Counted from the stretch's first letter, positions 8,161 to 64,000 are shown. The stretch: DNA of 64,000 bases from Promethearchaeota archaeon (GCA_019057865.1 JAHLWP010000010.1:54086-118085); one strand, 5' to 3'. Notes: generated from the sequence alone by a model not told the origin. Made by a program: numbers and translations.

Positions 8161-8532
8161 TTAATTTGCTTTTAAAACTAATGTTATAGCTCTCGTTAAA
8201 CGAATAATATCCATTACTTTACCTTTCTCTACATTAATTTCTTCACGACTAATGGCATGCGTGAAATCACCTTTTCCATTACAAATTTTAACGATTGAAT
8301 TAGGATCTCCAGACATAACAATAACTGAATCTGATTTGGTCCCTTCTAACAAAATTGCTTTGCGGTTTTTAATATCTACATAAAAAGGGTCTTCAATATC
8401 AAGGTTGAATTGAAATGACATTTCCCAATCAACGTCCTTCCCAGCAATATTAGTTACAAAAACAACTTGAGCTTTTTCATTTTGGTTTATTTTTTCAATA
8501 ATTTTTGTTAAATTATCTCTTGCTATACCCAT
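8161..8532 (-). CDS. SCP2 sterol/lipid-binding domain protein
   Basis: FQFNLD..PFYVDI..., GDFTHAISREEINVEKG pattern; lies in a thiolase-DUF35 operon. Confidence 0.7.
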   Translation of the reverse strand: MGIARDNLTKIIEKINQNEKAQVVFVTNIAGKDVDWEMSFQFNLDIEDPFYVDIKNRKAILLEGTKSDSVIVMSGDPNSIVKICNGKGDFTHAISREEINVEKGKVMDIIRLTRAITLVLKAN

Positions 8533-8534
8533 TT

Positions 8535-9029
8535 TTACTTCCCTCCTTCATATTCAGGTTTATTAATCCAGTTTTCATATTCATCTTCTGGAACAAAGAA
8601 GAAATCTGTCATTTTCCCTTCTCTTACTTTGTTAAAAACAGCTCTAACTCTTCTTCCTTTTTTAATCTTAGAAGGAACTAAATTTTCTGAAAAAATTCCT
8701 TGAAGTAATGCGGTTTCTGCTCCATCTAATTTTATAAAGCCTATACTATAAGGTACGGCTTTTATAAATGCAGAAGTTGTATACCATACAATTGTGCTAA
8801 CTTCTATAGTTCCTGTTTGGTTCAATTCTACCCATTTAGCAGGAGCAAAACAATCAGAGCAATTGATCCTTGGAGGCATCCATGTCTTTCCACATTTAGT
8901 ACATTTTGTGCCCAATAGTTTTTTATTTTTCATTAATTCTAAAAAGAATTTGGATTGTCCTCCCATTGTGTATTTGTAGTTGATCCTTATTACATCTCTT
9001 ATTTGATGCTCCTGAAATTCTTCGCTCAT
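8535..9029 (-). CDS. DUF35 Zn-ribbon/OB-fold protein (thiolase partner)
   Basis: GTKCTKCGKTWMPPRINCSDC, IKLDGA, RVRAVF. Confidence 0.9.
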   Translation of the reverse strand: MSEEFQEHQIRDVIRINYKYTMGGQSKFFLELMKNKKLLGTKCTKCGKTWMPPRINCSDCFAPAKWVELNQTGTIEVSTIVWYTTSAFIKAVPYSIGFIKLDGAETALLQGIFSENLVPSKIKKGRRVRAVFNKVREGKMTDFFFVPEDEYENWINKPEYEGGK

Positions 9030-10375
9030 GGTTTTTTCAACCCCTCCTCATTTGTCATTACTATAACCGCAGCATATGCCGCTCCAGGGCCTCCTATTGA
9101 GTGAGCAATAGCTCTGCCATTTTCAATTGTTTTTATTTGATGCTTTCCAGCATCCTCTCTAAGCTGAAGTGCTGCTTCACCTGTAGACATTATCCCGGTA
9201 GCACCAACAGCATGACCACATCCAATTAATCCACCGCAAGGGCAACATGGTAATTCACCATCTAACCATGGCCCCTCCCCTGGTTTTTCAAAGGATTTTT
9301 CAATCCATGGACCACCTTCCCCAAAAGGAACAAACCCAAGCTCCTCATAAGAGATGACTTCTTATCCAGAGAATATCGAACTGATATTCATTGTCCTGAG
9401 AAGGCATCATGGAGCTCTGCTAAATCAATTTGTTCCTTTATTTTATTATAGTCTAAGCCTGCCATCTTATACGCGGCTTTTGCAGCAAAAATATTTGAAT
9501 ATAACCTTCCCATATCTTCTCTATTTCCTATAAAACAATCGGTATTTGCTGCTGCGACACCAGTAATCCAAATCGGCTTTTCAATTTTTAATTCTCTTAC
9601 TTTTTCTTCACTTGCGAGAATTAATGCTGCTGATGCTTCTGAATATAAACAACAATCAAGCATCTTGAAGGGATGACAAATTATCCTTGAGTATAGGACA
9701 TCATCTAAGGAAATTTTCATAGGGGATTGTGCTTTTGGATTGAGCATAGCATTCCCATGGTTTTTTACGCTAACTTTAGCCAATTTTAACTAATTGTTAA
9801 GATTTAAAGCCATTTGTTCTTCGGTAGGATTACCGAATTCTTCATAATGGGCGTTTACCATAGAAACGTACGAGGTTGCTGCCATCATTCCCATAGGATA
9901 TTTACGAAATATGTAGAACTTACACCATTTTTTCGTAAGTCATATCAGTAGAATAGGCGATGGCATTCAAAACTTCAGGTGTCGTAGTTCCTGTTTGTTC
10001 GTCATAGCAATCATTGCATTTTTCGACTCCTATACATAAACATAAGTCAGATAAGCCAGAAGCTACTTCTGCAAAAGCCATTCGGACAGTATATCCTCCT
10101 GTTGCTCCTCCTGTTGCTATACGAGTACCAGGTTTATTATTCATCCCTATATAGGAATTACAAAAAATATCTGGCATAAATTGTCTTTCAAATAGCTCAT
10201 TATAGATTCCATATACCGTAGATTGTAAATCCTTATGAGTTATTTCAGCACCGTTATTATTTGCGTCCTCAAGTGCTAATTTTGTTGCATCATATGCTAA
10301 TTCAAAATATGTCTTATCTAAATACTGGGCTTTAAAAGGAGTAATTCCTATACCTATAATCGCAACTTTCTTCAC
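9026..10375 (-). CDS. Thiolase-superfamily (SCP-x/Ltp-like) protein, 4 exons (10375-9932, 9900-9806, 9775-9393, 9363-9026), 419 aa after removing three predicted BHB introns
   Basis: 1350 nt minus 31+30+29 nt = 1260 nt = 419 codons plus stop. Spliced junctions read DMTYE/YPMG, EEQMAL/VSVKNH and ELHDAFSGQ/EVISYEELG. C-terminal GGLIGCGHAVGATG. The stop overlaps the DUF35 ATG (ATGA). Confidence 0.88.
9364..9392 (-). other. Predicted BHB mRNA intron 3 of thiolase 1 (29 nt)
   Basis: mRNA: GAUGCCUUCU-CAGG-AC^A-AUGAAUAUC(AGUUC)GAUAUUCU-CUGG-AU^A-AGAAGUCAUC. Exon stem 9/10 bp; central helix has one A.G mismatch. Removal restores the frame. Confidence 0.75.
9776..9805 (-). other. Predicted BHB mRNA intron 2 of thiolase 1 (30 nt)
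   Basis: mRNA: AAU-GGCU-UU^A-AAUCUUAAC(AAUUA)GUUAAAAUU-GGCU-AA^A-GUU. Contains an in-frame UAG. Spliced product is MALVSVKNH. Confidence 0.85.
9901..9931 (-). other. Predicted BHB mRNA intron 1 of thiolase 1 (31 nt)
   Basis: mRNA: U-UACG-AA^A-AAAUGGUGUA(AGUUC)UACAUAUUU-CGUA-AA^U-A. Perfect 4-bp central helix. Spliced product is TYEYPMG. Confidence 0.85.
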
Positions 10376-10542
10376 ATTTTTTCACATTTTATATTATTTT
10401 ATGTTTTTTGATATTAGATATATTTATTATATATTCTTTTCCAATTTTTTTTAGAGAGTAAATCGTTAAAAGTTTAAATCTTACATTATTTAATTCTATA
10501 ATTGTATTATAATTAACAGTTTGTTAACAAAAGTGAAAAAAA

Positions 10543-33876: not shown

Positions 33877-34962
33877 GTGATAAAAATGAAAAAGATTAAA
33901 AACTTTAAATTGCTTTCGATTGGATTTTTATCTTTATTTATCTTAATTTTCCTAATACCCATTGTTCATGCTGATGACGTTACGTTATTGGTTGAGGAAT
34001 CTGAATCCAATTACTATCTTCATAGTACTCTGACTGTATGGAAAAGAGAAGATGCTGATCCTAATAAAGATTATTACGCGGTTAAACTTACTGTTGCTGA
34101 ACATTACGCACAAAATAATATTTTTATCGAAATAATGAGAATGGGTGCAGGTCTTAATGTGTATCACCCCGCTGTTGGTGGTGGTATAATTAATCGAGCC
34201 GAACGTAAACCTAGTGCTGGAATTCATCTTGGAGGAACGATTTATATAGGATTTGGGGGGATTACTATTGCCTGTGGGCTACCCACAGGAGTGGTAACTT
34301 TGGCAACAGACACAAATACTGAACAACATTGGGCTGTATCTAGCTGCCTTGCAATTAATTGTTTGGATTTTGTAATCAAGGTCTCTACACCTGAAGGACA
34401 AGGACTCTACATATCTAGTTGGTGTGGGGCTCACTGGTTCACTTTCACGGGCCTTGGTTATTGGCTTCCAGATAGAGAAGGTTATGGTCCTAGTCACTAT
34501 ATATATGTTGGACCCGAGAGGGACGGAGGTGGTTGTCCAATTCTTTCTGTATATAATGGAACAGATTATATAGAAGAAGGATTGCTAAATATTCATAGTC
34601 CATCTTTTGATATTAAAAATGAACATACCTTAATCATGAAACCTGAAGCGGTAGACAATCGATATCTCCTTAGACTTACTGAACACTACAAAACCATCTC
34701 ACATATAGATAATGTAAAGCTATTTGGGAGGTTATCGAATGGTGTATTGATTCCATTACAATTAACATCAGCATTCCATTCTGCAATTGGTAATGTCATT
34801 GATACTTTATGGCTTAGTGATGACAACCGAGTGGACGTTTTAGGTGCGGATCATAATGATGGCATATCTGAGTTTATTGATTTAGAATTTAATGCCCACA
34901 ATGGTCAGAGTTTCATAGAATTCTTATTTGTGATTGAAGGCTATAATGCGTTCGTAAAATAA
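33877..34962 (+). CDS. Secreted protein with C-terminal GGGCP domain
   Basis: Signal peptide ending VHA; C-terminal GGGCPILSVYNG..EGLLNIH..SHIDNVKL..FVIEGYN. Confidence 0.75.
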   Translation: MIKMKKIKNFKLLSIGFLSLFILIFLIPIVHADDVTLLVEESESNYYLHSTLTVWKREDADPNKDYYAVKLTVAEHYAQNNIFIEIMRMGAGLNVYHPAVGGGIINRAERKPSAGIHLGGTIYIGFGGITIACGLPTGVVTLATDTNTEQHWAVSSCLAINCLDFVIKVSTPEGQGLYISSWCGAHWFTFTGLGYWLPDREGYGPSHYIYVGPERDGGGCPILSVYNGTDYIEEGLLNIHSPSFDIKNEHTLIMKPEAVDNRYLLRLTEHYKTISHIDNVKLFGRLSNGVLIPLQLTSAFHSAIGNVIDTLWLSDDNRVDVLGADHNDGISEFIDLEFNAHNGQSFIEFLFVIEGYNAFVK

Positions 34963-62114: not shown

Positions 62115-62603
62115 TTATGGTTTTTGTACCTCTCTAATAACTTTAAAGTATATTATATCCCCTATATTTCCTTTCCTTTCATCTTTAAATACAGCCTCAA
62201 CACGCATCCCTACTTTTAATTTAGTATAGTCCGTTTCATCTATAAAATGCATTGTAAAAGTATCAGCGCCATCTAATTTGAATAATGCATAGCCATAAGG
62301 AAAAGGACGTAGACCTCCTGTCTGAGGATCTACAAAAGGATAATTAACTACCGTGAAGCCATGCAAAGTTCCTTTTTTATCCAATTCAACTAGATCCTTT
62401 AACTCCATTTTAATAAAACATTCTGCACATACAGTTCTGGGTGGAAAATGCACTTTACCGCATTTTGGACACTTGCTTCCTAATAATTTTTTGTTTTCCT
62501 TTAGCTCTTCAAAAAATTTAACCGATAACTTACCTATGGAATACCTATAAGGTAGATCGGTTTTCCATTTAATCTCAAAAGGCTTTTCTTTCTGTTTGCT
62601 CAT
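62115..62603 (-). CDS. DUF35 Zn-ribbon/OB-fold protein
   Basis: GSKCPKCGKVHFPPRTVCAEC, KLDGAD. Confidence 0.92.
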   Translation of the reverse strand: MSKQKEKPFEIKWKTDLPYRYSIGKLSVKFFEELKENKKLLGSKCPKCGKVHFPPRTVCAECFIKMELKDLVELDKKGTLHGFTVVNYPFVDPQTGGLRPFPYGYALFKLDGADTFTMHFIDETDYTKLKVGMRVEAVFKDERKGNIGDIIYFKVIREVQKP

Positions 62604-62612
62604 ATTTTTTAT

Positions 62613-63809
62613 TCACCTCATAGGTTCTTTTCCTAATATTAGTATTTCTGTCCAAAGTGAACCGCCAAATCCCATTGCTAAAGCATTTTCTGCATCAGGT
62701 ACTTGACGTTTTTCACCTCTGCCCATTACTTGAGTTGCTGCCTCAGCTACTCGAATTAATGCTGTAGCACCTATAGGATTAGTACTCAATACACCTCCCG
62801 ATGGATTAACTGGTAATTCTCCACTCATTTCAGTAATTCCCTCATCTAACAACTTCCCTCCTTCACCAAATTTAGCAAATCCTAGGGCTTCTGTCCATGC
62901 TAATTCGCTCCAACTTGTGGGTTCATATATTTCAGCGACATCTAAATCTTTTATTGGATTAGTGATTCCTGCTTTTTTATAAGCTTTCTTTGAAGCAATC
63001 GTAGCTGTAGGGAGATTATACATTGCATCATCAGTCCCAAAGGTATAATAATGAGCAGTTTCTAAGGCTTTAAACCATGCCGGATTATCTGTTATCTTCT
63101 TAGCTTCTTCTTTATTTGCATAAATTAGAGCACATGCTCCTTCACTCTGTGGACAGCAATCATGTAATCTTAATGGATATGATATCATCTGTGAACTCAT
63201 AACATAATCTACAGTAATATCAGGCATTTGTAGATGTGCAAATGGATTATTAGCGGCATTACGACGATTTTTTACAGTAACTTTTGCTGCTTGTTCTGGT
63301 GTTGCGCCATATTTATCTTGATACATAGATGCCATAAGGGCTAGTGGACCGAGAGCACCAGCTAAAGATGGTCTTTCCCATACCGGATCAAATGCTGTTA
63401 TTATACCGGTAGTAGCTCCACCTTCTTTTAATTTTTCCCAACCAACAACTAAAACCTTGTTATAAATTCCTGAGGCAACATTGTGATAACCACATATAGC
63501 TAAGGAACTACCCGTTGTGCCACCTGTTGCAACCTTAACTACAGGTTTTAAATATCCAGGAGCTCCTTCAATTCCACAGAATAATTCAGAGAAATTAATT
63601 CCTTCAAAATGGTCCATTTAGTATTTAATCTCGAGATGAAATTAAATATTACCAATGACGATCGCATCAATCTCTTTAGGTTCAAGTTGAGCATCATCAA
63701 GAGCCATCTTTACGGCTTCGTATACCATCTCAGGGATATTAACATCTCTTCTCTTACTCCTAAATTTAGTCTGACCTATGCCGACTACGGCTACATCATG
63801 TCTCGGCGT
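62613..63809 (-). CDS. Thiolase-superfamily (SCP-x/Ltp-like) protein, 2 exons (63809-63648, 63617-62613), 388 aa after removing one predicted BHB intron
   Basis: Exon 1 reads (ACG)PRHDVAVVGIGQTKF...DAQLEPKEIDAIVIGN and joins MDHFEGIN... of ORF 62613..63617. VKNRRNA, AEIYEP, PVNPSGG, NPIGATA. Confidence 0.88.
63618..63647 (-). other. Predicted BHB mRNA intron of thiolase 2 (30 nt)
   Basis: mRNA: GGUA-AU^A-UUUAAUUUC(AUCUC)GAGAUUAAA-UACU-AA^A-UGGAC. 9-bp intron stem; in-frame UAA. Spliced product is IGNMDHF. Confidence 0.87.
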
Positions 63810-63816
63810 TTTAAAT

Positions 63817-63825
63817 TCCCTCCTT
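63817..63825 (-). promoter_or_regulatory. Shine-Dalgarno site for thiolase 2
   Basis: AAGGAGGGA, 7 nt upstream of ACG 63809. Confidence 0.65.
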
Positions 63826-64000
63826 ACTGTTATTATTAAAGTCTATTTTTATTTTCATATTTTCTTATTAAATCGTTCGTGTATTTAATACTTATTATAT
63901 TGTCAAAATAGACTATTCGATTTTTTTGTCTAATTCTTTTTTTTCTATATTAGTATTCAAGTATTTATTTTTTTTTCTATTAATTTCCGTGGTCGGAAAG

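What the first reader, a model, noticed from the sequence alone, without database searches (positions are those of the whole stretch)
9026..10375. A protein-coding gene with three tRNA-type (bulge-helix-bulge) micro-introns: candidate mRNA splicing system in an Asgard archaeon
Seen: the ORF track splits this thiolase into pieces. The breaks are three discrete insertions of 31, 30 and 29 nt, each a hairpin flanked by a 4-bp helix and two 3-nt bulges. Established: the archaeal splicing endonuclease EndA cuts after the 2nd nucleotide of each BHB bulge and RtcB ligates. Applying that rule gives an uninterrupted 419-aa thiolase with conserved motifs restored at all three junctions (TYEYPMG, MALVSVKNH, HDAFSGQEVISYEELG). 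The exons carry no other lesion, and the stop overlaps the DUF35 start. The archaeal mRNA intron I know well is the single one in crenarchaeal cbf5; several in one metabolic gene would be unusual. Inference: a spliced multi-exon mRNA that pipelines would call a pseudogene.
Basis: partly seen in the sequence, partly recalled or inferred. Interest (0 to 1): 0.97.

Follow-up and report, generated by a model that had tools for sequence, protein, structure and literature searches.

The report
Three tRNA-type mini-introns in thiolase gene
A thiolase gene of an uncultured Asgard (Promethearchaeota) archaeon is broken by three roughly 30-base inserts shaped like tRNA introns, and comparison with 77 relatives indicates they are cut out of the messenger RNA by the tRNA-splicing enzymes, a kind of splicing published for only one archaeal coding gene.

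Summary
On the minus strand of 9026-10375, removing inserts of 31, 30 and 29 nt restores a 419-aa thiolase ORF. About 90%-identical orthologs show each insert as an exact gap.

Each insert fits the EndA bulge-helix-bulge (BHB) rule at exactly the frame-restoring register. The central helix pairs 4/4, 4/4 and 3/4.

Across 78 Promethearchaeota orthologs, 14 carry 22 such introns at 8 sites, and every spliced ORF is intact. Intron 1 and intron 2 have homologs in other genomes with compensatory hairpin changes. These hairpins are far more conserved than the saturated 4-fold sites of the same genes. The G000 branch has dN/dS of 0.05-0.09.

The genome encodes a two-subunit EndA and one RtcB. Its single aIF2-gamma and aEF2 orthologs carry the same kind of insert. 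Its acetyl-CoA synthetase has five, and a second thiolase in this window has one.

The best reading is EndA/RtcB-spliced mRNA micro-introns (confidence 0.87). No RNA data could be obtained.

Earlier follow-ups of this scan reported the same phenomenon on other DNA of this genome and in other Asgard genomes. I found no paper describing it. It is a new variant of a known kind.

The parts
9026..10375 (-). Interrupted thiolase gene (SCP2/Ltp-type thiolase). GTG start at 10375, TGA stop at 9026-9028. 419 aa after removal of three introns.
   Evidence: Thiolase_N; Thiolase_C_1 profile continuous across intron 3. (about 90%-identical uninterrupted orthologs).
9932..10375 (-). Exon 1 (444 nt, codons 1-148)
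9901..9931 (-). Intron 1, 31 nt, phase 0. Central helix UACG/CGUA 4/4, bulges AA|A and AA|U, hairpin with AGUUC loop. A homolog (32 nt, 84% identical) sits at the same site in Loki_b31 (L081).
9806..9900 (-). Exon 2 (95 nt)
9776..9805 (-). Intron 2, 30 nt, phase 2. Central helix GGCU/GGCU (G-U, G-C, C-G, U-G), bulges UU|A and AA|A, 9-pair hairpin with one mismatch. Homologs in L117, L140, L104 and L081 show 4 pairs with compensatory double changes.
9393..9775 (-). Exon 3 (383 nt)
9364..9392 (-). Intron 3, 29 nt, phase 1, just after the HDAF motif. Central helix CAGG/CUGG 3/4, bulges AC|A and AU|A, 5-bp exon helix CUUCU/AGAAG, 7-bp hairpin GAAUAUC/GAUAUUC. An unrelated 30-nt intron with a perfect CUGG/CCAG helix occupies the same site in six other genomes of the census (L078, L081, L085, L094, L096, L122).
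9026..9363 (-). Exon 4 (338 nt including the stop)
8535..9029 (-). DUF35/ChsH2-type zinc-ribbon plus OB-fold partner gene. Its ATG overlaps the thiolase stop (ATGA), so the two are translationally coupled.
63618..63647 (-). Same kind of element in a second gene of the window. A 30-nt intron in a paralogous thiolase (exons about 63648-63842 and 62613-63617, followed by its own DUF35 gene at 62115-62612). Central helix GGUA/UACU 4/4, 9-bp hairpin. It is an exact gap in three same-genus orthologs.

Best explanation
The three inserts are archaeal bulge-helix-bulge (BHB) micro-introns in a protein-coding transcript. The thiolase-DUF35 operon is transcribed with the inserts. In the pre-mRNA each insert folds into its own hairpin. 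Its last six nucleotides and the last six exon nucleotides form a 4-bp helix flanked by two 3-nt bulges. The heterotetrameric (alpha-beta)2 splicing endonuclease EndA cuts after the second nucleotide of each bulge. RtcB joins the exon ends, and probably circularises the intron. The result is an mRNA for an intact 419-aa thiolase. Shown here: exact junctions, BHB register, covariation, selection on exons and introns, the enzymes' genes, and the same inserts in essential genes. Inferred: the cleavage and ligation themselves, and which enzymes perform them.
For: (1) Excision by the EndA rule restores a 419-aa ORF whose junction residues match orthologs that lack the inserts. (2) The register is specific. 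Over 16 independent introns, 59 of 64 central-helix positions pair at the true register, against a mean of 35 for decoys. With the second thiolase added, non-Watson-Crick pairs are 14 G-U and 0 A-C, so the pairing exists only in the sense RNA. (3) In 78 orthologs, 14 carry 22 introns of 29-35 nt at 8 sites. All have a helix of 3/4 or better, and every spliced ORF is open. Ordinary 18-nt coding indels in the same gene show no BHB. (4) For intron 2 across 5 genomes, 93.7% of cells pair against 20-48% when the partner is slid. Four pairs carry compensatory double changes, and 0 of 500 shuffles reach the score. (5) Homologous intron hairpins are 54-100% identical (61-100% excluding the 54% L101-L134 pair) between genomes whose 4-fold sites are 29-91% identical. 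In the diverged pairs, with 4-fold identity of 29-50%, hairpin identity is still 54-96%. The introns have therefore been kept while the genes stayed intact. (6) The G000 branch has dN/dS of 0.05-0.09, like intron-less branches. Only 2 of 283 otherwise invariant residues have changed. This is the only copy of this ortholog in the genome. (7) The genome has a catalytic EndA subunit, a second non-catalytic-looking EndA subunit, and one RtcB. Asgard EndA is reported as (alpha-beta)2 with the L1 loop that allows relaxed BHB substrates (PMC5829648). (8) Essential single-copy genes of the same genome carry the same inserts. aIF2-gamma has 29 nt in its P-loop with ATGG/CCAU 4/4. aEF2 has 30 nt with UCAG/CUGA 4/4. 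Acetyl-CoA synthetase has five.
Against: MFE folding does not by itself prefer the BHB. Intron 3 has an A-G mismatch in its central helix. Introns 1 and 2 lack a convincing outer exon helix, so cleavage relies on a broad-specificity EndA whose activity on these substrates is untested. Splicing efficiency is unknown, so part or all of the transcripts could remain unspliced.
Confidence: 0.87

Rival explanations
1. The gene is a recently inactivated pseudogene, hit three times by small insertions that merely resemble BHB introns.
For: Gene callers would see four fragments. Each insert carries a stop or a frameshift. The closest exon relatives (L062, L063, L068) lack all three inserts.
Against: There is no other lesion in 1260 nt, and dN/dS is 0.05-0.09 on a branch with dS of about 0.45. 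Homologous introns persist in other genomes with intact exons at saturated synonymous divergence. Covariation is present. The same inserts sit in the only aIF2-gamma and aEF2 orthologs. The register specificity would be unexplained.
Confidence: 0.04
2. The inserts are excised from the RNA, but by a nuclease and ligase pair other than EndA and RtcB, or the BHB-like fold serves another RNA-processing or regulatory step.
For: Enzyme identity is inferred only. Introns 1 and 2 are relaxed motifs.
Against: The cut positions that restore the frame are exactly the EndA positions (after the second nucleotide of each 3-nt bulge) in 16 of 16 independent introns. EndA and RtcB are present. No other known system removes 30-nt inserts with this geometry.
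Confidence: 0.05
3. The inserts stay in the mRNA and are skipped during translation (ribosomal bypassing or frameshifting), or they are removed at the DNA level in part of the population.
For: Short hairpin-containing gaps recall T4 gene 60. Near-direct repeats flank introns 2 and 3 (TGGCT..TGGCT and TCTCAGGA..TCTCTGGA).
Against: No matched take-off and landing codons give the conserved product. Intron 1 has no direct repeat. The G-U versus A-C asymmetry of 14 to 0 points to a sense-RNA helix, not a DNA structure. The geometry is that of tRNA introns. The inserts are stably assembled in many independent MAGs.
Confidence: 0.02
4. The inserts are assembly or binning artefacts.
For: The genome is a MAG with 87 contigs and 5% contamination.
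Against: Inserts of the same kind, some homologous and at the same sites, occur in 13 other MAGs from independent studies. They always sit at BHB-competent registers.
Confidence: 0.01

Closest known systems
BHB intron in the cbf5 (pseudouridine synthase) pre-mRNA of Crenarchaeota (Watanabe 2002; Yoshinari 2006; Yokobori 2009, PMC2738675)
   Same: A short intron inside an archaeal coding sequence, with BHB geometry. It is removed by a hetero-oligomeric splicing endonuclease and shows gain and loss among relatives.
   Different: That case is one intron in one RNA-modification gene of Crenarchaeota. Here there are three introns in one metabolic gene and a fourth in a paralog 53 kb away. The same genome has five in acetyl-CoA synthetase and single introns in aIF2-gamma and aEF2. 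The lineage is Asgard (Promethearchaeota). The inserts are a uniform minimal size of 29-35 nt. Splicing is not yet shown at the RNA level.
Archaeal tRNA and rRNA BHB introns, including the heavily interrupted tRNA genes of Asgard archaea (bioRxiv 10.64898/2026.10.13.758758; Marck and Grosjean 2003)
   Same: The same motif (4-bp helix, two 3-nt bulges, a cut in each bulge) and the same predicted enzymes. Introns sit where the exon can supply half of the motif, and gains and losses recur.
   Different: The host RNA is an mRNA with no cloverleaf context. The exon half of the motif is constrained by codons. Removal must be exact to the nucleotide to keep the reading frame.
BHB intron in the 5' UTR of Haloferax volcanii HVO_1309 mRNA (PMC7714728)
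   Same: EndA acts on an mRNA.
   Different: That intron lies in the untranslated leader, not in the coding sequence, and there is a single case.
IRE1/RtcB unconventional splicing of XBP1/HAC1 mRNA in eukaryotes
   Same: A protein-only cut-and-ligate removal of a roughly 26-nt intron from a coding mRNA, with ligation by RtcB in metazoa. It changes the reading frame.
   Different: A different endonuclease (IRE1) and a different recognition motif (twin stem-loops). It is a regulated stress switch at one gene. No homology of the introns is implied.

Membership tests
Archaeal BHB (EndA-dependent) intron | [quoted passage not shown] | tested here: met
   I1 4/4, I2 4/4 (two G-U pairs), I3 3/4 at the only registers that restore the ORF. 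The register is unique against 120 decoys.
Archaeal BHB (EndA-dependent) intron | Cleavage after the second nucleotide of each bulge gives the functional mature RNA | tested here: met
   Applying the rule gives junctions that match intron-less orthologs (TYE|YPMG and HDAFSGQ|EVIS; at junction 2 the residue is Leu, where orthologs have Leu or Tyr).
Archaeal BHB (EndA-dependent) intron | Flanking helices: exon helix h and intron helix h' (strict hBHBh') | tested here: inconclusive
   The intron hairpin abuts the central helix in all three. The exon helix is good for I3 (5 bp) and weak or absent for I1 and I2, which makes them the relaxed HBh' form.
Archaeal BHB (EndA-dependent) intron | The structure is conserved by compensatory change | tested here: met
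   For intron 2 in 5 genomes, 4 pairs carry double changes and 93.7% of cells pair, against 48% or less when slid. G-U versus A-C is 14 to 0 in central helices.
Archaeal BHB (EndA-dependent) intron | The host encodes a splicing endonuclease of a type that accepts relaxed motifs, and an RtcB ligase | tested here: met
   Two EndA-domain ORFs, one with Tyr/His/Lys and the other lacking the His, plus one RtcB. The (alpha-beta)2 type with L1 loop in Asgard comes from PMC5829648; the L1 loop itself was not checked here.
Archaeal BHB (EndA-dependent) intron | The intron is absent from mature RNA; a circular or linear free intron is detectable | not testable with these tools
Thiolase superfamily (SCP2/Ltp-type thiolase paired with DUF35) | Thiolase N- and C-terminal domains, an HDAF-type catalytic loop, and an adjacent DUF35/ChsH2 partner | tested here: met
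   Thiolase_N (E 2.4e-5 on exon 1 alone, below the curated cut-off) and Thiolase_C_1 (E 5e-15). The DUF35 gene matches zf-ChsH2 and OB_ChsH2_C. There are 77 full-length orthologs at about 85-91% identity. Enzyme activity was not tested.
Group I / group II self-splicing introns | A catalytic RNA core of hundreds of nucleotides | tested here: not met
   The inserts are 29-31 nt. There is no Rfam match in 8500-10500 apart from a chance miRNA hit at E 0.31.
Miniature transposable element (MITE/IS remnant) | Multiple similar copies in the genome, terminal inverted repeats, target-site duplication | tested here: not met
   No other copy of any of the three inserts in the 4.26-Mb genome. Intron 1 has no flanking direct repeat.

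The most novel reading that the evidence does not exclude
These micro-introns are not just tolerated relics. They form a dynamic, possibly mobile intron population in the mRNAs of the closest prokaryotic relatives of eukaryotes. Homologous introns sit at identical sites in thiolase alleles that are not each other's relatives: the AU test rejects one clade for the four intron-2 carriers at p 1.3e-5, though the grouping was post hoc. Their hairpins are 65-96% identical where neutral sites are saturated. The flanking exons show no conversion tract. One hairpin appears to have slid by 5 nt. This fits either site-specific intron spread (for example RNA-level insertion followed by reverse transcription, or very short-tract gene conversion) or frequent precise intron loss through cDNA. 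Both are eukaryote-like gain and loss processes acting without a spliceosome.
Probability: 0.35. Interest if true: 0.95.

Novelty: new variant of a known kind. Interest (0 to 1): 0.87.

Why it matters
Published archaeal mRNA splicing inside a coding sequence rests on a single gene, cbf5 in Crenarchaeota (PMC7714728 says so explicitly).

Here an Asgard archaeon carries three such introns in one metabolic gene. It carries more in a paralog, in acetyl-CoA synthetase and in essential translation GTPases.

If they are spliced, three things follow:
- Protein-only mRNA splicing is a routine part of gene expression in the lineage closest to eukaryotes.
- Intron gain, loss and sliding can be studied in a prokaryote.
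- Standard annotation pipelines wrongly call these genes pseudogenes or fragments, which distorts the metabolic reconstructions of Asgard MAGs that feed eukaryogenesis models.

It also raises the question of how transcription-coupled translation copes with unspliced messages.

Tried and rejected
No statement about expression or splicing at the RNA level is possible.

2. An ab initio genome-wide scan (BHB pattern plus ORF-joining) was swamped by ordinary gene boundaries. There were about 9,600 hits under every cut rule and only a weak excess at L = 29 and 31. I abandoned it as a census. A window-only version gave 74 hits. Of the few I followed up, one (63618-63647) proved real, and the hit at 34550 lies inside a continuous 374-aa ORF. 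The scan also missed intron 3, because its hairpin has a 1-nt bulge.

3. Plain MFE folding of the three sites gives unremarkable z-scores, so thermodynamics alone neither supports nor refutes the BHB.

4. A search for other genomic copies of the inserts found none. They are not a repeat family.

5. I tested whether G000 acquired introns 1 and 2 through a visible gene-conversion tract from an intron-bearing allele. Exon identity around the introns is no higher to intron sharers than to others, so no tract is detectable.

6. The ten-residue insertions in two other genes (o240, o308) have poorly conserved flanks and no 30-nt BHB solution. I treated them as ordinary indels.

7. For the two introns of G002/L092, the alignment-derived 34-nt excision gave a stop. 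The BHB-guided placement one base over restores TY|EYP. For its second intron, a 34-nt alternative with a 4/4 helix would delete one Met and cannot be excluded.

Full report
**What is there**

The finding lies on the minus strand. ORF listing breaks the region 9026-10375 into four pieces.

Removing window 9901-9931 (31 nt), 9776-9805 (30 nt) and 9364-9392 (29 nt) gives a 1260-nt frame of 419 aa. Left in, each insert brings a stop.

Pfam sees Thiolase_N in exon 1. It sees Thiolase_C_1 running from profile position 48 at the end of exon 3 to position 52 at the start of exon 4, so the domain is continuous across intron 3.

The next gene (8535-9029) is a DUF35/ChsH2-type zinc-ribbon plus OB-fold protein whose ATG overlaps the thiolase stop. 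The neighbours are an NMO-family oxidoreductase and an AMP-binding acyl-CoA synthetase, which suggests an acyl-CoA metabolism cluster.

**Are the inserts real and exact?**

A search of 61 related genomes found about 30 orthologs at roughly 90% identity, nearly all with uninterrupted frames of 412-435 aa. In the DNA alignment the three inserts are exact gaps in all of them. G000 has only one copy of this ortholog.

**BHB geometry**

The layout is a 4-nt exon strand, a bulge (2 exon nt then 1 intron nt), the intron hairpin, a 4-nt intron strand, and a bulge (2 intron nt then 1 exon nt). At the only placements that give the ortholog-like product, the central helices are as follows:

| Intron | Central helix | Pairs | Bulges |
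|---|---|---|---|
| I1 | UACG/CGUA | 4/4 | AA\|A, AA\|U |
| I2 | GGCU/GGCU | 4/4 (two G-U) | UU\|A, AA\|A |
| I3 | CAGG/CUGG | 3/4 | AC\|A, AU\|A |

I3 also has a 5-bp exon helix. I1 and I2 have almost none, so they are relaxed HBh' motifs. MFE folding alone is not diagnostic.

To ask whether this exceeds chance, I collected 16 independent introns. Nine are thiolase intron families, one is in aIF2-gamma, one in aEF2 and five in acetyl-CoA synthetase.

- The true register pairs 59 of 64 positions, with 11 helices at 4/4 and all 16 at 3/4 or better.
- 120 shifted registers average 35 paired positions and 1.07 helices at 4/4. The only elevated decoys are those that slide along the same helix.
- With the second thiolase added (17 introns), the non-Watson-Crick pairs are 14 G-U and 0 A-C. 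The helix therefore exists only in the sense RNA, not in DNA or antisense.

**Comparative census**

The search for related loci returned 80 loci, almost all titled Promethearchaeota (formerly Lokiarchaeota) MAGs.

- Among 78 full-length orthologs including G000, 14 carry 22 inserts of 29-35 nt.
- The inserts sit at eight sites (codon positions 126.0, 127.0, 147.0, 148.0, 152.3, 179.7, 305.7 and 307.3).
- All have a central helix of 3/4 or better at the product-restoring register, and all spliced frames are open.
- Ordinary 18-nt coding indels in the same gene show no BHB and serve as a negative control.

G000's introns have relatives elsewhere:

- Intron 1 has an 84%-identical homolog at the same site in Loki_b31 (L081).
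- Intron 2 has homologs in L117, L140, L104 and L081. On that alignment 93.7% of cells pair, against 20-48% when the 3' partner is slid. Four pairs carry compensatory double changes, and no shuffle of 500 reaches the covariation score.
- The intron 3 site is occupied in six other genomes of the census by an unrelated 30-nt intron with a perfect CUGG/CCAG helix.

**Selection**

Pairwise dN/dS of the spliced G000 gene against its relatives is 0.03-0.07. By three-taxon decomposition, the G000 branch has dS of about 0.45 and dN/dS of 0.05-0.09, like intron-less branches. G000 departs from 283 otherwise invariant residues at only two, within the 0-5 range of the other sequences.

Homologous intron hairpins are 54-100% identical. 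In the diverged genome pairs, 4-fold degenerate sites are only 29-50% identical, which is saturated. The introns have therefore coexisted with an intact, selected gene for a long time and are themselves conserved. This is hard to reconcile with a pseudogene.

**The machinery and the rest of the genome**

G000 encodes two EndA-domain proteins of about 200 aa. One has the Tyr/His/Lys catalytic residues and the other lacks the His. It also encodes one RtcB. This matches the (alpha-beta)2 EndA with broad specificity reported for Asgard archaea (PMC5829648).

The only eIF2_C hit in the genome has its P-loop GHVDHG|KTTLV split by 29 nt, with an AUGG/CCAU 4/4 helix.

As an unbiased sample I compared 400 kb of a same-genus genome (G006, CP070831) with G000. 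Among 268 orthologous ORFs, two G000 genes carry inserts:

- The single aEF2 ortholog has one insert of 30 nt (UCAG/CUGA).
- Acetyl-CoA synthetase has five, of 32, 33, 30, 30 and 30 nt. Each restores the ortholog's residues at a BHB register.

That is roughly 1% of genes. Because essential single-copy translation factors are interrupted in the same way, the organism must remove such inserts.

A fourth intron lies in this window: 30 nt at 63618-63647 in a paralogous thiolase-DUF35 pair. It is an exact gap in three orthologs.

**Mechanism and rivals**

The best reading is EndA cleavage and RtcB ligation of the pre-mRNA. The alternatives each fail on at least one test above:

- Pseudogene.
- Another nuclease.
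- Translational bypass or DNA excision.
- Assembly artefact.
- Repeat element, with no other copies in the genome.
- Self-splicing intron, with no Rfam match.

What is missing is RNA.

**Unexplained distribution**

Intron carriers are scattered on the exon tree.

- The AU test rejects a single clade for the four intron-2 carriers (p 1.3e-5; the grouping was chosen after seeing a tree).
- It gives p 0.019 for L092 plus L134.
- It does not reject a clade for G000 plus L081 (p 0.25).

G000's closest exon relatives lack all three introns, and no conversion tract is visible around the introns. Either precise loss is frequent or the introns spread between alleles.

**Literature**

Searches found four relevant items:

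- The cbf5 coding-sequence intron (PMC2738675).
- A 5'-UTR BHB intron in Haloferax. The same paper states that cbf5 is the only other mRNA case (PMC7714728).
- The Asgard EndA typing (PMC5829648).
- A 2026 preprint on Asgard tRNA introns that does not treat mRNAs.

No paper in the searched library describes BHB introns in Asgard protein genes. Earlier follow-ups in this scan reported the same phenomenon in this genome and in other Asgard genomes. This locus is the multi-intron example, and it carries the comparative record.

Noticed in passing
window 62115-63842 (minus strand); intron 63618-63647: A second thiolase-DUF35 gene pair in the same window is split by a 30-nt BHB insert (GGUA/UACU 4/4, 9-bp hairpin). 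Five same-genus orthologs have uninterrupted 391-aa frames, and the insert is an exact gap in the three I aligned.
   Followed up: yes
G000:C82:1-1600 (minus strand), continuing on C39:23963-24628: The acetyl-CoA synthetase gene carries at least five micro-inserts (32, 33, 30, 30 and 30 nt) inside conserved AMP-binding motifs. Three of them have no in-frame stop. All are BHB-compatible and restore the residues of the uninterrupted G006 ortholog. A contig break cuts the gene.
   Followed up: yes
G000:C82:38813-41092 (minus strand): The single aEF2 (EF-G family) ortholog has a 30-nt insert with a stop between LQMTDSD and DEEQERGI (switch I region), with a perfect UCAG/CUGA BHB and a 9-bp hairpin. 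The only other hit is a 33%-identical paralog on C87.
   Followed up: yes
L041 (G000:C63) about 545-573: The aIF2-gamma P-loop GHVDHG|KTTLV is split by a 29-nt insert with an AUGG/CCAU 4/4 central helix. It is the only eIF2_C hit in the genome.
   Followed up: yes
L104:3433-3481 versus window 9357-9404: The intron of L104 at codon 305.7 has a hairpin core about 82% identical by my hand alignment (18 of 22 nt) to G000 intron 3 (GAAUAUCA.UU.GAUAUU). It is spliced 5 nt further upstream with a different central helix (UUUU/GAAA). This is possible intron sliding.
   Followed up: partly
L062-L141 (thiolase orthologs): Homologous introns occur in alleles that are not sisters on the exon tree, and intron hairpins are far more conserved than 4-fold sites. 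This fits repeated precise loss or lateral spread of introns. No conversion tract was seen.
   Followed up: partly
G000 whole genome: ARAGORN finds only 30 tRNA genes, 18 of them called with introns, in a genome that is 99.7% complete. This is consistent with heavily interrupted tRNA genes that standard tools miss.
   Followed up: no
L037 (G023:C1:1492574-1495100): In one same-genus genome the thiolase match stops after residue 62 in the middle of a contig, so it is a truncated remnant or a rearrangement. It is a contrast to the intact spliced genes.
   Followed up: no
L096, L131: Two contigs with this Promethearchaeota-type thiolase are filed under bacterial MAG names (Deferrimicrobium, Mcinerneyibacteriota). 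This is probably binning contamination.
   Followed up: no
17 introns: The bulges are A-rich. The 3' splice-site bulge is AA|N in 12 of 17 introns, and 10 of 17 introns are exactly 30 nt (1 + 23-nt hairpin + 4 + 2). This suggests a preferred minimal design.
   Followed up: partly
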